Of a stretch of DNA of 14,761 nt, positions 1 through 14,761 are shown in pieces (within the stretch, counting starts at the first letter, position 1; the number at the start of each line of letters is the position of its first letter). The position numbers were made by a program, and so were the translations under genes. The DNA is from a virus (lineage: Duplodnaviria; Heunggongvirae; Uroviricota; Caudoviricetes): IMG/VR virus record IMGVR_UViG_2695420589_000006; one strand, written 5' to 3'. The notes below the pieces were generated by a model. The model did not search any database. It was not told the origin of the DNA and saw only the letters and a list, made by a program, of their open reading frames with translations.

Positions 1-82
1 TACGCCGGACCACCGTTCCGCCGACCAGACTCTGTAGATCTTCCGCCATCCCGGTGACCATACCGTACAGGTTAGAAACCAT
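1..82 (-). CDS. L: Tail tip protein L, partial: reading frame opens with ATG at 82..80 and runs off the window start; only the part matching the middle of lambda gpL is present
   Basis: Minus-strand translation from 82 gives MVSNLYGMVTGMAEDLQSLVGGTVVRR, matching the internal gpL segment I recall (…TVSNLYGMVTGMAEDMQSLVGG…). An in-frame TGA lies 5 codons upstream at 97..95. The N-terminal ~80 codons of L are not found anywhere upstream. Confidence 0.55.
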   Translation of the reverse strand, partial: MVSNLYGMVTGMAEDLQSLVGGTVVRR

Positions 83-408
83 CTCACCACCTGTTCAAAC
101 TCTGCGCTGAACTCAACACGCAGCATACTGACCCGCGACGACCATTTTGCGCAGGTCACCTTTATCTGCCGCCACTCATAAGGCGGCGTCCACAGAAAGG
201 CTTTCCAGCCCCCGTGCTCTTCCAGAAACGACTCCAGTACCATGGCCTCCTCACGGGGGACAGAAAGCGTCACGCTGTACGTTTTCAGGTTGGCATTCAG
301 CCCGGCAGGCGCTCGCTGGGAATAGCCATCACCAAAGCGCACCTTTCTTACAGAAGGGGCCGAAGCCACATCCATACCGGGTTTCACTTTCCAGCGGAAG
401 GTTTTCAT
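1..408 (-). CDS. M: Minor tail protein M; the M-homologous part is about 82..408, but there is no in-frame stop at the expected end and the frame stays open to the window edge
   Basis: ATG at 408..406 overlaps the H stop in an ATGA. Translation is MKTFRWKVKPGMDVASAPSVRKVRFGDGYSQRAPAGLNANLKTYSVTLSVPREEAMVLESFLEEHGGWKAFLWTPPYEWRQIKVTCAKWSSRVSMLRVEFSAEFEQVV, then continues as RWFLTCTVWSPGWRKIYRVWSAERWSGV with no stop. Not in the ORF track because it has no stop inside the window. Confidence 0.8.
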   Translation of the reverse strand, partial: MKTFRWKVKPGMDVASAPSVRKVRFGDGYSQRAPAGLNANLKTYSVTLSVPREEAMVLESFLEEHGGWKAFLWTPPYEWRQIKVTCAKWSSRVSMLRVEFSAEFEQVVRWFLTCTVWSPGWRKIYRVWSAERWSGV

Positions 409-2966
409 CGTCCACCTCCGGAGAACAGGCCACCATCACGCATCTGTGTCTGAATTTCATCACGGGCACCCTTGCGGGCCATGTCATACACGGCCTTCAT
501 CATCTGTGGACCTGGCAGACCATTCGTACCGTCGTTCTGAATCACCACGTGATTGTTCTGATTAAAATTAATGCCTTCAGCCCGCCGCATCTGCGCCGGA
601 CTTCCGGCACCGCCCACATAACCACCTTCCGCATAGCCGCGCATCAGCCGGTAGAGATTCCCCACGCCAATCCGGCTGGTTGCCTCCTTCGTGAAGACAA
701 ATTCACCACGGTGAACAATCCCCGCTGGCTCATATTTGCCGCCGGTTCCCGTAAATCCCCCGGTTGCAAAATGGAATTTCGCCGCAGCGGCCTGAATGGC
801 TGTACCACCTGACGCGGATGCGCCGCCACCAACAGCCCCGCCAATGGCGCTGCCGATACTCCCGACAATCCCCACCATTGCCTGCTTAAGCAGAATTTCT
901 GTCATCATGGACAGCACGGAGCGGGTGAAGCTGCGCCAGTTCTGTTCACTGCCGGTCAGCATCGCCGCCATATTCTGTGCAATACCATCAAAGGTCTGCG
1001 TGGCTGCACTTTTAACCTGTGACATACTGTCCGTGGCGCTCTCTTCCCACTCACTCCAGCCGGACTTCAGGCCTGCCATCCAGCTCCCGCGAAGCTGGTC
1101 TTCAGCCGCCCAGGTCTTTTTCTGCTCTGACATGACGTTATTCAGCGCCAGAGGATTATCGCCATACTGTTCCTTCAGGCGCTGTTCCGTGGCTTCCCGC
1201 GCTGCCTGCCGGTCAGTCAGCCCCCGGTTTTTCGCATCAATGGCTGCCCGTTTTGCCCGTTGCTGCTGTGCGAATTTATCCGCCTGCTGCGCCAGCGCAT
1301 TCAGGTGCTCCTGATACGTAACCTTGTCACCAAGTGCAGCCAGCTGGCGTTTGTACTCCAGCGTCTCGTCTTTATGCGCCAGCAGGGATTTCTCCTGTGC
1401 GGACAGCTGGCGACGTTGTGCCGCCTCCTCCAGTACCGCGAACTGACTTTCTGCCTTCCACAAATCCCGGCGCTGCTGGCTGATTTTCTCATTCGCTCCG
1501 GCATGCTTCTCCAGCGTCCGGAGTTCTGCCTGAAGCGTCAGCAGGGCCGCATGAGCACTGTCTTCCTGACGATCGCCCGCATACACCTTCACGCCGGACT
1601 GTTTCGGCTTTTTCAGCGTCGCTTCATAATCCTTTTTCGCCGCCGCCATCAGCGTGTTGTAATCTGCCTGCAGGATTTTTCCGTCTTTCAGTGCCTTGTT
1701 CAGTTCTTCCTGACGGGCGGTATATTTCTCCAGCGGCGTCTGCAGCCGTTCGTAAGCCTTCTGCGCCTCTTCGGTATATTTCAGCCGTGACGCTTCGGTA
1801 TCGCTCTGCTGCTGCGCATTTTTGTCCTGTTGACGCTGTTGATCTACCCTCTTTTGGGCTGCATCCCGCTCCAGGCGTTTTTTTTCACGATCATCCCAGT
1901 AACGCGCCCGTGCTTCATCGTTAACGAAATAATCATCCTTGCGCAGATTCCAGATGTCGTCTGCTTTCTTAAACGCAGCCTCTGCCTTAATCAGCATCTC
2001 CTGCGCGGTATCAGGACGACCAATATCCAGCACCGCATCCCACATGGATTTGAATGCACGTGCAGTCCTGTCTGCCCAGGTCTCCAGCGTGCCCATGTTC
2101 TCTTTCAGGCGGCGGGTCTGGTCATCAAACCCTTTCGTTGCGGCCTCGTTCGCCGCCTGCAATGCCCCGGCTTCATCGCCGGAACGCTGCAACTGAGCAA
2201 CATACGCAATCTGCTCCGCCGTCACGTTATGGAACTGGCGTGCCATCGCCGTCAGCCCCGACGTCGGGTCTGTGGTCAGCTTCCCGAAGGCTTCAGCGAC
2301 CTTGTCCACCTCCACGCCGGATGCAGAGGAGAAACGCGCCACACTCTGGCTGATGGACGCAATCTGAGCCTCACCGCTTACCCCCGCCTTAACCAGTGCG
2401 CTGAGTGACTCGCTGGTCTGGTTAAACGTCAGCCCTGCCGCCTGCCCGGCTCTGGACAGGACCAGCATACGATCTGCCGTCAGTCCCGCCTGATTACCGG
2501 AAAGGACCAGCGTTTTGTTGAAATCGGACAGGGTTGAGTTGCCCTGATACCAGGCATACGCCAGCGCACCGGTCGCCACCGCCAGCGAGGTGGCCCCCAC
2601 CATCGGCAGGGTGATCGCGCCGGCAAGCCCCCTGAACATGGGGATCATCCCGCCGAAGGAGTCCTTAACCTGACCACCCTGTTGCAGCAGGATCAGCCAG
2701 GGATTCTGCCCCCCTGCAAGCTGCGTGGCCACGTCGGTGAACTGTGCAGGCAGCATACGCATGGCGGCTTTATACTGCCCGACGGAAATCCCCGCTTTCT
2801 GTGCAGCCAGCGCCTGTCGGCTCAGCGACTGTTCAACGACTGCCGCTGTTTTTTTCGCATCACTTTCCGTACCGGAAAAATGACGCCTGACTCTGGCCAT
2901 CTGCTCGTCAAATCTGGCCGCATCCAGACTCAAATCAACGACCAGATCGCCTACCGGTTCAGCCAT
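405..2966 (-). CDS. H: Tail tape measure protein H (853 aa)
   Basis: ORF track 405..2966, 853 aa, begins MAEPVGDLVVDLSLDAARFDEQ; same length and N-terminus as lambda gpH. Long coiled-coil-like middle and Gly-rich C-terminus. 8-bp overlap with T upstream. Confidence 0.95.
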   Translation of the reverse strand: MAEPVGDLVVDLSLDAARFDEQMARVRRHFSGTESDAKKTAAVVEQSLSRQALAAQKAGISVGQYKAAMRMLPAQFTDVATQLAGGQNPWLILLQQGGQVKDSFGGMIPMFRGLAGAITLPMVGATSLAVATGALAYAWYQGNSTLSDFNKTLVLSGNQAGLTADRMLVLSRAGQAAGLTFNQTSESLSALVKAGVSGEAQIASISQSVARFSSASGVEVDKVAEAFGKLTTDPTSGLTAMARQFHNVTAEQIAYVAQLQRSGDEAGALQAANEAATKGFDDQTRRLKENMGTLETWADRTARAFKSMWDAVLDIGRPDTAQEMLIKAEAAFKKADDIWNLRKDDYFVNDEARARYWDDREKKRLERDAAQKRVDQQRQQDKNAQQQSDTEASRLKYTEEAQKAYERLQTPLEKYTARQEELNKALKDGKILQADYNTLMAAAKKDYEATLKKPKQSGVKVYAGDRQEDSAHAALLTLQAELRTLEKHAGANEKISQQRRDLWKAESQFAVLEEAAQRRQLSAQEKSLLAHKDETLEYKRQLAALGDKVTYQEHLNALAQQADKFAQQQRAKRAAIDAKNRGLTDRQAAREATEQRLKEQYGDNPLALNNVMSEQKKTWAAEDQLRGSWMAGLKSGWSEWEESATDSMSQVKSAATQTFDGIAQNMAAMLTGSEQNWRSFTRSVLSMMTEILLKQAMVGIVGSIGSAIGGAVGGGASASGGTAIQAAAAKFHFATGGFTGTGGKYEPAGIVHRGEFVFTKEATSRIGVGNLYRLMRGYAEGGYVGGAGSPAQMRRAEGINFNQNNHVVIQNDGTNGLPGPQMMKAVYDMARKGARDEIQTQMRDGGLFSGGGR

Positions 2967-3812: not shown

Positions 3813-4636
3813 TTAACTGGCGGTGACGTTGATTTCTGCAACCGCAGCAAACTCACCATTACCAGATACGACCGGAATGTTGACCTTGCCTGCAGCAACA
3901 CCTTTCACGGTGATGGTCATACCACTGACCGACACGGTGGCTTTTGTTTTATCCGCAGACACCGCACGGAAGCTCTTGTCGGTTGCGCCATCCGGCTGGA
4001 ATGCCACGGTCAGCGTGGTGCTCTGCCCTTTCACTACGGAAGCACTGGCGGGTGTCACCGTCATGCCGGTCGTCGCCGTCACCGTGCTGCGATCTTCTGC
4101 CATCGACGGACGTCCCACATTGGTGACCTTCACCGTGCGGGTAATCACCTCCTTCGCCGTCACCGCCTTACCGATACTGCTGACCCAGCCACGGAACACA
4201 TCGACCGTGCCGTTCGGGAAGCGGATTTTATAGGCACGGGTATCACCTTCATTAAACCACGCCAGCNNNNNNNNNNNNNNNNNNNNNNNNNNNNNNNNNN
4301 NNNNNNNNNNNNNNNNNNNNNNNNNNNNNNNNNNNNNNNNNNNNNNNNNNNNNNNNNNNNNNNNNNNNNNNNNNNNNNNNNNNNNNNNNNNNNNNNNNNN
4401 NNNNNNNNNNNNNNNNNNNNNNNNNNNNNNNNNNNNNNNNNNNNNNNNNNNNNNNNNNNNNNNNNNNNNNNNNNNNNNNNNNNNNNNNNNNNNNNNNNNN
4501 NNNNNNNNNNNNNNNNNNNNNNNNNNNNNNNNNNNNNNNNNNNNNNNNNNNNCGCATAAGGGTCACCGCTCCCCTTATAAACCCACAGGGTGGTCCCGGC
4601 ACCTTTCACCGGCATTGTAGGATTTGGTACAGGCAT
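3813..4636 (-). CDS. V: Major tail protein V, interrupted by the N-run 4267..4552
   Basis: ATG at 4636 with GAGGA SD, N-terminus [28 protein letters not shown]. After the gap the sequence reads …[40 protein letters not shown]… through to …AEINVTAS (ORF 3813..4199). The two halves are in different frames only because of the N-run length. Confidence 0.9.
4267..4552. other. N-run (286 nt) inside V
   Basis: Run of n characters in the sequence. Confidence 1.
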
Positions 4637-9173: not shown

Positions 9174-12925
<3,752 letters not shown>

Positions 12926-12951
<26 letters not shown>

Positions 12952-13471
12952 TCAGCAACCCCGGTATCAGTTCATCCAGCGCGGCTGCTTTGTTCATGGC
13001 TTTGATGATATCCCGTTTCAGGAAATCAACATGTCGGTTTTCCAGTTCCGGAAAACGCCGCTGCACCGACAGGGGGATCCCGTCGAGAATACTGGCAATT
13101 TCACCTGCGATCCGCGACAGCACGAAAGTACAGAATGCGGTTTCCACCACTTCAGCGGAGTCTCTGGCATTTTTCAGCTCCTGTGCGTCGGCCTGCGCAC
13201 GCGTAAGTCGATGGCGTTCGTACTCAATAGTCCCTGGCTGGAGATCTGTCTCGCTGGCCTGCCGCAGTTCTTCAACTTCCCGGCGCAGCTTTTCGTTCTC
13301 AATTTCAGCATCCCTTTCGGCATACCATCTTATAACGGCGGCAGAGTCATAAAGCACCTCATTACCCTTGCCACCGCCTCGCAGAACGGGCATTCCCTGT
13401 TCCTGCCAGTTCTGAATGGTACGGATACTCGCACCGAAAATGTCAGCCAGCTGCTTTTTGTTGACTTCCAT
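12926..13471 (-). CDS. Nu1: Terminase small subunit Nu1 (181 aa)
   Basis: ORF track 12926..13471, MEVNKKQLADIFGASIRTIQNWQEQGMPVLRGGGKGNEVLYDSAAVIRWYAERDAEIENEKLRREVEEL… with a winged-HTH N-terminus; it sits directly downstream of cosB. Confidence 0.95.
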
Positions 13472-13495
13472 TGTTCATTCCACGGACAAAAACAG

Positions 13496-13690
13496 AGAAA
13501 GGAAACGACAGAGGCCAAAAAGCCCGTTTTCAGCACCTGTCGTTTCCTTTCTTTTCAGGGGGTGTTTTAAATAAAAACATTAGGTTACGGCGAAGAAGAA
13601 CGGAAACGCCTTAAACCGGAAAATTGTCATAAATAGCGAAAACCCGCGCGCCTTCCGCCCCGTAACCTGTCGGATCGCCGGAAAGGACCC
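13496..13690 (-). other. cos: cos packaging site: cosB (R1 about 13496..13510, R2 about 13538..13552, R3 about 13597..13612), putative cosN 12-mer 13649..13660, cosQ-like segment about 13661..13690
   Basis: Minus strand reads …ACAGGTTACG GGGCGGAAGGCG CGCGGGTTTTCGCTATTTATGACAATTTTCCGGTTTAAGGCGTTTCCGTTCTTCTTCG…GAAAGGAAACGACAGG…CTGTCGTTTCCTTTCTCTG… and then the Nu1 ATG. The R-site motifs CGTTTCC(T/G)TTCT occur three times in the lambda arrangement. Confidence 0.8.
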
Positions 13691-13697
13691 GCAAAAT

Positions 13698-13710
13698 GAT
13701 AATAATTATC
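13698..13710. promoter_or_regulatory. 13-bp perfect palindrome GATAAT-A-ATTATC followed by a direct repeat of CATCTAC, in the AT-rich region between cos and the DUF3950 gene
   Basis: Read directly: gataataattatc at 13698..13710; CATCTAC at 13710..13716 and 13729..13735. It lies about 150 bp upstream of the DUF3950 ATG. Candidate operator or promoter element; no function demonstrated. Confidence 0.3.
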
Positions 13711-13859
13711 ATCTACATGTCACAACGTGCATCTACGCCATCAAACCACGTCAAATAATCAATTATGACGCAGGTATCGTATTAATTGATCTGCATCAAC
13801 TTAACGTAAAAACAACTTCAGACAATACAAATCAGCGACACTGAATACAGGGCAACCTC

Positions 13860-14093
13860 ATGTCAACGAAGAACAGAACCCGCAGAACAACAACCCGCAA
13901 CATCCGCTTTCCTAACCAAATGATTGAACAAATTAACATCGCTCTTGTTCAAAAAGGGTCCGGGAATTTCTCAGCCTGGGTCATTGAAGCCTGCCGCCGG
14001 AGACTGTGCTCAGAAAAAAGAGTTTCGCCTGAAGCAAACAAAGAAAAGAGTGACATTACTGAATTGCTCAGAAAACAGGTTAGACCAGATTGA
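13860..14093 (+). CDS. Small basic protein, DUF3950 / YlcI-YnfO-like, possibly ribbon-helix-helix (77 aa)
   Basis: ORF track 13860..14093, MSTKNRTRRTTTRNIRFPNQMIEQINIALVQKGSGNFSAWVIEACRRRL…; AGGG about 8 nt upstream of the ATG. Resembles the small prophage-encoded YlcI/YnfO proteins I recall next to packaging genes in E. coli cryptic prophages. It is on the strand opposite to the late genes. Confidence 0.7.
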   Translation: MSTKNRTRRTTTRNIRFPNQMIEQINIALVQKGSGNFSAWVIEACRRRLCSEKRVSPEANKEKSDITELLRKQVRPD

Positions 14094-14150
14094 AGCAATT
14101 TAGATAATCGTGCAGACTACGCCCCCTCATATCACATGGAAGGTACTACA

Positions 14151-14561
14151 ATGGCTCAGGTTGCCATTTTTAAACAAATATTCGATAAAGTGCGAAATAA
14201 TTTAAACTATCACTAGTTTTATTCTGAACTAAAACGTCACAATGTCTCACATTACATTTACTATTTAGCCACAGAGAATATTCATCTTGTTCTTGAAAAC
14301 GATAATACGGTTTTAATAAAAGGACAGGGTAAGGTTGTAAATGTAAGATTTTCAAAAAATAAATGCCTTATAGAAGCCACCTTAAAAGGATTCAAATCAG
14401 GAGAGTTATCATTTTACGAATACAGGAAAAATCTTGCTACAGCAGGGGTTTTCAGATGGATTACAAATATCCACGAAAACAAAAGGTATTACTATACCTT
14501 TGATAATTCATTACTCTTTACTGAGAACATACAGAACACTACACAAATATTTCCGCACTAA
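14151..14561 (+). pseudogene. DUF1398 / YbcV-like gene with a single in-frame amber (TAG) codon at 14214..14216 (codon 22 of 136)
   Basis: ATG at 14151 with GGAAGG upstream. Translation is [138 protein letters not shown], with TAA at 14559..14561. The same frame is homologous on both sides of the TAG. Absent from the ORF track because of the internal stop. Confidence 0.65.
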
Positions 14562-14606: not shown

Positions 14607-14761
14607 ATGATGAAATATGTGTACCCGGTAACCCCGGTGTGCATCGTTTTTGATTATTCCCGCACACTCGCGCAGAAGGAGTTCCCCGTCGGGCTACGGT
14701 CTCTGTTAATACGGGAATACGGCGACGATTGGATTTGCCCCTATATTTCCAGACATCTGTT
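14607..14761 (+). CDS. Hypothetical protein, 5' partial ORF running off the window end
   Basis: ATGATG at 14607 then MMKYVYPVTPVCIVFDYSRTLAQKEFPVGLRSLLIREYGDDWICPYISRHL… with no stop before the window end. No convincing SD. Same strand as the accessory genes. Confidence 0.3.
   Translation, partial: MMKYVYPVTPVCIVFDYSRTLAQKEFPVGLRSLLIREYGDDWICPYISRHL

What the first reader, a model, noticed from the sequence alone, without database searches (positions are those of the whole stretch)
1..410. M-L junction is abnormal: M has no stop codon and the 5' third of L is missing
In canonical lambda, M (109 aa) ends …EFEQVVN-stop and its TGA overlaps the L ATG; L then encodes about 232 aa beginning MQDIRQ…. 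Here the M frame reads …EFEQVV and continues RWFLTCTVWSPGWRKIYRVWSAERWSGV to the window edge with no stop. In another frame an ATG at 82..80 opens directly onto MVSNLYGMVTGMAEDLQSLVGG, which matches about residue 80 onward of gpL as I recall it. This implies a deletion of roughly 240 bp at the M/L boundary. It would give M a frameshifted C-terminal extension and leave an N-terminally truncated L, expressed (if at all) from a newly created ATG. gpL is essential for tail-tip assembly, so this would normally make the phage tail-defective, as in a decaying prophage or an engineered tail-minus construct.
Basis: partly seen in the sequence, partly recalled or inferred. Interest (0 to 1): 0.6.

Follow-up and report, generated by a model that had tools for sequence, protein, structure and literature searches.

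The report
Missing 240 bp at M–L junction
In this draft scaffold, a lambda-like prophage of the Shigella sonnei type lacks 240 bases at the boundary of two tail-tip genes; because the join lies 83 bases from the end of a patchy assembly, it is either an assembly fault or a trivial private deletion in an already dead prophage.

Summary
Compared with lambda and every relative examined, the window lacks exactly 240 bp. The lost stretch is the last two bases of M codon 109, the M stop, the L start and L codons 1-78 plus two bases of codon 79. The M frame stays open to the window edge, and L resumes at Met80.

One detail is wrong. The ATG at 82..80 is not newly created. It is the native Met80 codon of this L allele.

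The window is not a clean genome. It is a draft scaffold with four N runs of mis-estimated length and a 66-nt island between two of them. One end sits 32 nt inside an IS2 copy. A 4.96-Mb sister genome (S. sonnei-type prophage) matches all 13,897 non-N bases with one mismatch and has intact M and L.

The junction is blunt. It is absent from every DNA collection searched, and no protein found carries the fusion. It lies 83 nt from the scaffold end, 11-13 nt past a point where sister draft contigs stop.

My estimate is an assembly or scaffolding artefact (about 0.55) against a real, strain-private deletion in an already decayed prophage (about 0.4). The decay signs are IS2, an altered cosN and a private nonsense mutation. 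Only reads or PCR can decide. Either way the finding is ordinary.

The parts
84..408 (-). Gene M (tail-tip protein, PF05939), codons 1-108 plus the first base of codon 109. The rest of codon 109 and the TGA stop are missing.
   Evidence: Translation. Residues 1-108 are identical to the 109-aa M of L016 and to 'phage tail protein [Shigella sonnei]'.
83..84 (-). Blunt junction (...GGTGGTGA|GATGG...) where 240 bp present in all relatives are absent. There is no microhomology at the breakpoints.
   Evidence: The junction is absent from genome contigs, viral contigs, metagenome contigs, complete E. coli genomes and phage records.
1..83 (-). Terminal 83-nt piece of L (nt 237-319), identical to L016 17531-17613. 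In the M frame it reads as the out-of-frame tail RWFLTC...WSGV.
   Evidence: The simulated full fusion would be 145 aa, stopping 27 nt past the window edge.
2..82 (-). L remnant, codons 80-106, starting at the native Met80 ATG (82..80).
405..2966 (-). Gene H (tape measure, 853 aa), intact. Its stop overlaps the M start.
   Evidence: The exact protein is indexed in 482 blocks of the collection; in the six places shown, intact 109-aa M and 232-aa L follow it in four (L005, L006, L007, L009), while L008 has an 81-aa M and L010 a split L.
4267..4552 (.). N run of 286 inside V. The true sequence in L016 is 203 nt.
9791..10079 (.). N run of 289 inside portal gene B. The true sequence is 254 nt.
11463..11673 (.). 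N run of 211 inside terminase gene A. The true sequence is 198 nt.
11740..11817 (.). N run of 78 inside A. The true sequence is 55 nt. Only a 66-nt island (11674-11739) separates it from the previous gap.
14730..14761 (-). Outer 32 nt of an IS2 copy. The scaffold ends inside a repeat.
   Evidence: Relatives without the IS match only from base 33 of the reverse complement. L016 and its sisters carry the whole IS2 there. It is annotated 'IS3-like element IS2 family transposase'.

Best explanation
The 240-bp loss is most likely a product of how this draft scaffold was built, not a feature of the organism's DNA. The window is a short-read scaffold of a Shigella sonnei-type lambdoid prophage. Its main contig runs from an IS2 copy to the 3' end of M, where the sequence is shared with other lambdoid prophage copies in the same genome and assembly graphs fork. 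A tiny 83-nt downstream piece of L was then attached without the intervening 240 bp and without N padding. One possible cause is a mis-estimated (zero or negative) gap, or trimming of the next contig at a scaffold join.

Shown: the scaffold nature, the wrong gap sizes, the tiny islands, the position at a recurrent contig end, and the uniqueness of the junction. Inferred: the actual joining step.
For: (1) The window has four N runs of 78, 211, 289 and 286 nt. A sister genome that differs by 1 base in 13,897 has 55, 198, 254 and 203 nt at those places, so the N runs are estimated scaffold gaps. One inter-gap contig is only 66 nt.
(2) One scaffold end is 32 nt into IS2, so the window is a whole scaffold bounded by repeats. 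The junction is 83 nt from the other end.
(3) Fourteen S. sonnei draft contigs carry a partial M ending at F104 (P0007). The longest, 14,478 nt, equals exactly the distance from the IS2 edge to M codon 104 in L016. This is the same contig as the window's body, and it ends 11-13 nt before the window's left breakpoint.
(4) E. coli drafts end at the same place (clusters of 97 and 156 partial-M members). Contigs L023-L028 stop at M nt 312/313, just before a G/A polymorphic base. That is a fork between co-resident prophage copies.
(5) S. sonnei genomes carry a second M-L allele on 1.2-2.3 kb contigs. A sister scaffold with N runs (L021) is anomalous at exactly this junction.
(6) Flanks are 100 % identical to sisters L005, L009, L010 and L016. 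All of these keep the missing stretch: the full 240 bp in L005, L009 and L016, and 239 bp in L010, whose L is frameshifted.
(7) The junction is blunt, with no microhomology.
(8) The junction is found nowhere else. There were 0 hits in genome contigs, viral contigs and metagenome contigs, no hit in 5,426 complete E. coli genomes, and only half-hits in 50,697 phage records.
(9) The predicted 145-aa fusion and its 136-aa window form are absent from about 15 billion proteins. No homologue covers more than 75 % of the fusion or carries any 5-mer of its tail.
Against: Every other contig join in this scaffold is marked by an N run of at least 78, and this one has none. Many scaffolders insert at least one N between unmerged contigs.

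The other four gaps are all over-estimated by 13 to 83 nt, so a 240-nt under-estimate would be out of line.

Both flanks are collinear, in the same orientation and from the same prophage allele, which is also what a real deletion looks like.

I could not identify the assembler, obtain reads, or find the second in-genome copy needed to show that the 240 bp are a repeat in this strain. An E. coli proxy for the second allele (L022) did not give identity tracts that match the breakpoints.

The prophage lineage is already decaying, so a neutral private deletion is plausible.
Confidence: 0.55

Rival explanations
1. This is a real, strain-private 240-bp deletion in a cryptic S. sonnei-type lambdoid prophage. 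It removes the M stop, the L start and L residues 1-79. M would become a 145-aa protein with a 37-aa out-of-frame tail. At best, L would be made as a 153-aa fragment from Met80, whose ATG now lies 1 nt after the natural Shine-Dalgarno-like GGTGGTGA. By established lambda genetics (my own knowledge, not tested here) the tail tip could not assemble. The loss would be neutral because the prophage is already inactivated.
For: The join is clean, collinear and free of N, unlike the scaffold's four marked gaps. The lineage shows decay: IS2 lies next to the cos-proximal genes in all sisters, the cosN cohesive-end sequence is changed at 5 of 12 positions, and this window has a private W22* in a DUF1398 gene. 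Sister genomes show frameshifted Z, M, L and K genes.
Against: The position is suspicious for a random event. It lies 83 nt from the scaffold end and 11-13 nt from a recurrent contig terminus of the same prophage; by chance that is about 0.2 % of the window. None of more than 1,000 contigs with the identical M, and no protein in the databases, shows the fusion. A genome differing by 1 base in 13.9 kb is intact.
Confidence: 0.4
2. This is a natural lambdoid variant in which M normally reads on and L normally starts at this ATG, so there is no defect.
For: The ATG is a native codon (Met80) in this L allele. A 153-aa L is annotated in some S. sonnei records (P0016).
Against: No phage or genome among 50,697 phage records and 5,426 E. 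coli genomes has the junction. All M homologues that reach ...AEF[E/K/R]QVV end one residue later. In the one 153-aa L context I could inspect, L010, the call arises from a frameshift in a full-length L gene; the other contigs carrying it could not be looked up.
Confidence: 0.02
3. This is an engineered tail-minus lambda construct.
For: None beyond the tidy multiple-of-three size.
Against: The flanks are a wild S. sonnei-type prophage with an IS2 insertion and a non-lambda cosN, 94-96 % identical to lambda and 99.99 % identical to natural isolates. There are no vector or scar sequences at the junction.
Confidence: 0.01

Closest known systems
Bacteriophage lambda tail-tip genes M (109 aa, J02459 13100-13429) and L (232 aa, 13429-14127)
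   Same: The gene order is H-M-L. M residues 1-108 and L residues 80-106 are recognisably the same proteins (about 95 % DNA identity). The precomputed Pfam families in sister loci are PF05939 and PF05100.
   Different: The window lacks the TGATG stop/start overlap and L codons 1-79. It has Met instead of Thr at L residue 80.
The lambdoid prophage of Shigella sonnei-type genomes (for example GCA_006370445.1 VFAD01000001.1 = L016; CP049183.1 = L017)
   Same: There is 1 mismatch over 13,897 bases. The IS2 insertion point and the variant cosN are the same.
   Different: Those genomes have the 240 bp, giving an intact 109-aa M and 232-aa L. They also have TGG instead of TAG at DUF1398 codon 22.
Join or indel errors in short-read scaffolds at near-identical prophage repeats
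   Same: The scaffold has N gaps of wrong size, tiny islands, and ends inside repeats. The anomaly lies next to a recurrent contig terminus.
   Different: The join carries no N, and I could not show the joining step or see reads.

Membership tests
Lambda gpM / Phage_min_tail (PF05939) | A protein of about 109 aa matching the family over its length | tested here: met
   Residues 1-108 are identical to the S. sonnei M protein. Homologues carry PF05939.
Lambda gpM / Phage_min_tail (PF05939) | The ORF ends one residue after ...QVV, with a stop overlapping or abutting the L start | tested here: not met
   There is no stop in the window; the frame runs on for 28 codons to the edge. All 76 homologues that reach this motif stop after one more residue.
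Lambda gpL / Phage_tail_L (PF05100) | A full-length protein of about 232 aa starting MQDI..., including the N-terminal 79 residues | tested here: not met
   Only residues 80-106 are present. Residues 1-79 and the start codon lie in the missing 240 bp.
Lambda gpL / Phage_tail_L (PF05100) | A C-terminal cysteine-rich part (residues about 107-232) | not testable with these tools
   This part lies beyond window position 1. It is present in the sister loci.
Defective (cryptic) lambdoid prophage | Independent inactivating lesions besides the one in question | tested here: met
   An IS2 copy abuts the cos-proximal region. cosN is changed at 5 of 12 bases compared with E. coli relatives. There is a private W22* in the DUF1398 gene. 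The functional effect of the cosN change was not tested.
Assembly or scaffolding artefact | The sequence comes from a scaffolded draft with unreliable joins | tested here: met
   There are four N runs whose lengths differ from the truth by +13 to +83 nt, a 66-nt island, and an end 32 nt into IS2.
Assembly or scaffolding artefact | The anomaly coincides with a contig boundary or repeat fork | tested here: inconclusive
   The left breakpoint is 11-13 nt past the terminus of sister S. sonnei contigs and of many E. coli contigs. The right breakpoint was not matched to any known boundary.
Assembly or scaffolding artefact | Reads contradict the junction | not testable with these tools
   No reads are available and the source assembly was not identified. 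The junction is absent from all searchable collections.

The most novel reading that the evidence does not exclude
The deletion is real, and the 153-aa C-terminal part of gpL (from Met80, placed right behind the native L ribosome-binding sequence) is expressed and retained for some host-beneficial role, alongside an extended M.
Probability: 0.02. Interest if true: 0.25.

Novelty: not a real feature. Interest (0 to 1): 0.05.

Why it matters
It matters very little biologically. If the deletion is real, it is one more neutral lesion in a prophage already crippled by IS2 and other changes, which is a well-known pattern of prophage decay in Shigella and E. coli. The practical value is a caution: an annotator would call a fused M and a pseudogene L from what is probably a faulty scaffold join. 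Near-identical co-resident lambdoid prophages make the M-L boundary a habitual breakpoint in short-read assemblies.

Tried and rejected
- **Microhomology.** A 6-nt direct repeat, CTGATG, flanks the region. Recombination across it would delete 237 bp and keep AACTGATG, which is not what the window shows, so I rejected it.
- **Recurrence of the junction.** Exact 31-mer and 22-mer searches found nothing in genome, viral or metagenome contigs. A 60-nt probe found nothing in E. coli genomes or phage records.
- **Recurrence of the fusion protein.** Exact look-ups and a homology search found none.
- **Finding the source assembly.** I tried exact proteins H and E. Only the longest contigs are read, so the source was not reached. 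The private SNP gives a stop codon, so there was no usable exact protein.
- **E. coli allele-B locus (L022) as a proxy for the second copy.** Its identity tracts do not line up with the breakpoints.
- **Inferring k-mer size from the 66-nt island.** The one polymorphic site is off-centre, so this was uninformative.
- **N runs as deliberate masks.** Rejected, because their lengths differ from the true sequence in a near-identical genome.

Full report
**What is in the sequence.** The minus strand of the window is a lambda-type late operon: Nu1, A, W, B, C, D, E, FI, FII, Z, U, V, G, T, H, M and the start of an L remnant. In the M frame, window 408..1 reads M residues 1-108 (…EFEQVV), then RWFLTCTVWSPGWRKIYRVWSAERWSGV, with no stop before the edge. 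From the ATG at 82..80 the sequence reads MVSNLYGMVTGMAEDLQSLVGGTVVRR. Lambda itself has M at 13100-13429 and L at 13429-14127 with the TGATG overlap.

**Size and ends of the gap.** Every relative in 50,697 phage records and 5,426 complete E. coli genomes that matches the first 600 bases does so in two pieces spanning 840 bases. Against near-identical sisters, the retained sequence is …GGTGGTGA|GATGGTTTC… and the missing stretch is L016 17291-17530, exactly 240 bp (ACTGATGCAGG…CCCACGCT).
- The loss removes the last two bases of M codon 109, the M stop, the L ATG, and L codons 1-78 plus two bases of codon 79.
- The breakpoints cannot be shifted, so there is no microhomology.
- A nearby CTGATG direct repeat would give a different product: 237 bp deleted with the M stop kept.

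The ATG is not newly created. Intact L genes of E. coli SE11 and of all sister genomes read CTG ATG GTT TCT. Met80 is a natural allele where lambda has Thr80.

**Where the window comes from.** The exact M protein is named 'phage tail protein [Shigella sonnei]' and sits on more than 1,000 contigs. Locus L016 (GCA_006370445.1, a 4.96-Mb contig) matches all 13,897 non-N bases of the window with one mismatch. The match includes the last 32 bases of the window, which are the outer end of an IS2 copy. Of the sister loci recovered through the exact H and E proteins, L005-L007, L009, L012, L013, L016, L017 and L019 have a 109-aa M followed by a 232-aa L. L008, L010 and L020 have a truncated or split M or L.

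**The window is a draft scaffold.** It contains four N runs. Their lengths are 78, 211, 289 and 286, whereas L016 has 55, 198, 254 and 203 bases at those places. They are therefore estimated scaffold gaps, not masks. One piece between two gaps is only 66 nt. One scaffold end is 32 nt into IS2, which is the usual signature of a short-read contig running into a repeat. The M-L junction lies 83 nt from the other end, so the terminal piece is the same size class as the 66-nt island.

**The junction region is a habitual contig break.**
- Fourteen S. sonnei draft contigs carry a partial M that ends at F104 (P0007). The longest is 14,478 nt, which is exactly the distance in L016 from the IS2 edge to M codon 104. 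It is the same contig as the body of the window, and it stops 11-13 nt before the window's left breakpoint.
- E. coli drafts do the same. Clusters of 97 and 156 partial-M sequences end at F104. Six such contigs stop at M nt 312 or 313, immediately before a G/A (E105K) polymorphic base. That is what a fork between co-resident, near-identical prophage copies produces.
- The window's left breakpoint (M nt 325) also sits immediately before a polymorphic base, nt 326 (N109S/I variants).
- S. sonnei drafts also carry a second natural M-L allele on 1.2-2.3 kb contigs. This allele occurs in 1,794 of 5,426 E. coli genomes.
- A sister S. sonnei scaffold that also has wrong-sized N runs (L021) shows a 150-nt patch of that allele exactly across this junction.

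**The junction is unique to this window.**
- Exact junction words are absent from genome, viral and metagenome contig collections.
- A 60-nt probe finds nothing in complete E. coli genomes and only half-matches in phage records.
- The 145-aa fusion predicted by applying the deletion to L016, and its 136-aa window-truncated form, are absent from about 15 billion proteins.
- A homology search with the fusion finds no protein that covers more than 75 % of it or carries any 5-residue word of the out-of-frame tail.

**Weighing the two readings.** For an artefact:
- the gap-ridden scaffold;
- the terminal 83-nt piece;
- the coincidence with a recurrent contig terminus of the very same prophage, which a random deletion would hit about 0.2 % of the time;
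- the blunt join;
- the absence of the junction from every other assembly, although a genome 1 SNP away is intact.

For a real deletion:
- the join carries no N, while the other four joins do;
- the other gap estimates err upward, not downward by 240;
- the flanks are collinear and of one allele;
- the prophage is already decaying, with IS2 next to the cos-proximal genes, a cosN 12-mer changed from GGGCGGCGACCT to GGGCGGAAGGCG in the whole lineage, and a private W22* in a DUF1398 gene of this window.

I put the artefact at about 0.55 and a real private deletion at about 0.4. The joining step itself (a mis-estimated gap, or trimming of the next contig) is inferred, not shown.

**Consequences if real.** These are inferred from established lambda genetics, which is my own knowledge and was not tested here. 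M would carry a 37-residue nonsense tail. L could be made only as a 153-aa fragment from Met80, whose ATG now sits 1 nt behind the GGTGGTGA that normally precedes the L start. The tail tip would not assemble. In a prophage already hit by IS2 this would be neutral.

**Comparison with what is known, and verdict.** The genes are ordinary lambda M and L. The prophage is the common S. sonnei-type lambdoid element. The anomaly is either a scaffold error or routine prophage decay. There is no sign of engineering and no natural variant with this architecture. Interest is low. Read mapping or a PCR across the junction would settle the matter.

Noticed in passing
window 13649-13660 (minus strand): The cosN cohesive-end 12-mer reads GGGCGGAAGGCG instead of the lambda and E. 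coli-prophage GGGCGGCGACCT (5 of 12 bases differ). All S. sonnei-lineage sister loci share the change; E. coli relatives have the canonical form. It may mean a packaging-defective prophage or an altered terminase specificity.
   Followed up: partly
window 14215 (gene 14151-14561, plus strand): The only mismatch to the sister genome L016 turns TGG into TAG, giving W22* in a DUF1398 gene between IS2 and cos. It could be a real private pseudogene or a base error.
   Followed up: yes
window 14730-14761: The last 32 bases are the outer end of an IS2 copy. In sister genomes this copy sits between the lysis/KilA-N genes and the DUF1398 gene. The scaffold therefore ends in a repeat.
   Followed up: yes
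window 4267-4552, 9791-10079, 11463-11673, 11740-11817: Four N runs interrupt V, B and A. Their lengths exceed the true sequence by 83, 35, 13 and 23 nt, which makes V and B look frameshifted in a mechanical ORF list.
   Followed up: yes
L021 2905-3075 (S. sonnei scaffold CWVO01000116.1): A sister scaffold carries a roughly 150-nt patch of a different natural M-L junction allele: M ends ...ADFEQVVA, with a 10-nt spacer before L. This gives a chimeric M (P0034). The allele is present in 1,794 of 5,426 E. coli genomes. I did not resolve whether this is real gene conversion or an assembly chimera.
   Followed up: partly
L023-L028 (E. coli draft contigs): Independent draft contigs end at M nt 312/313, just before the E105K polymorphic base. 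This marks a systematic assembly breakpoint at the 3' end of M in genomes with several lambdoid prophages.
   Followed up: partly
L008, L010, L013, L020 (sister genomes): The same prophage shows split Z, M, L, K, B or H genes in some assemblies with megabase contigs. These could be further decay or long-read indel errors.
   Followed up: no
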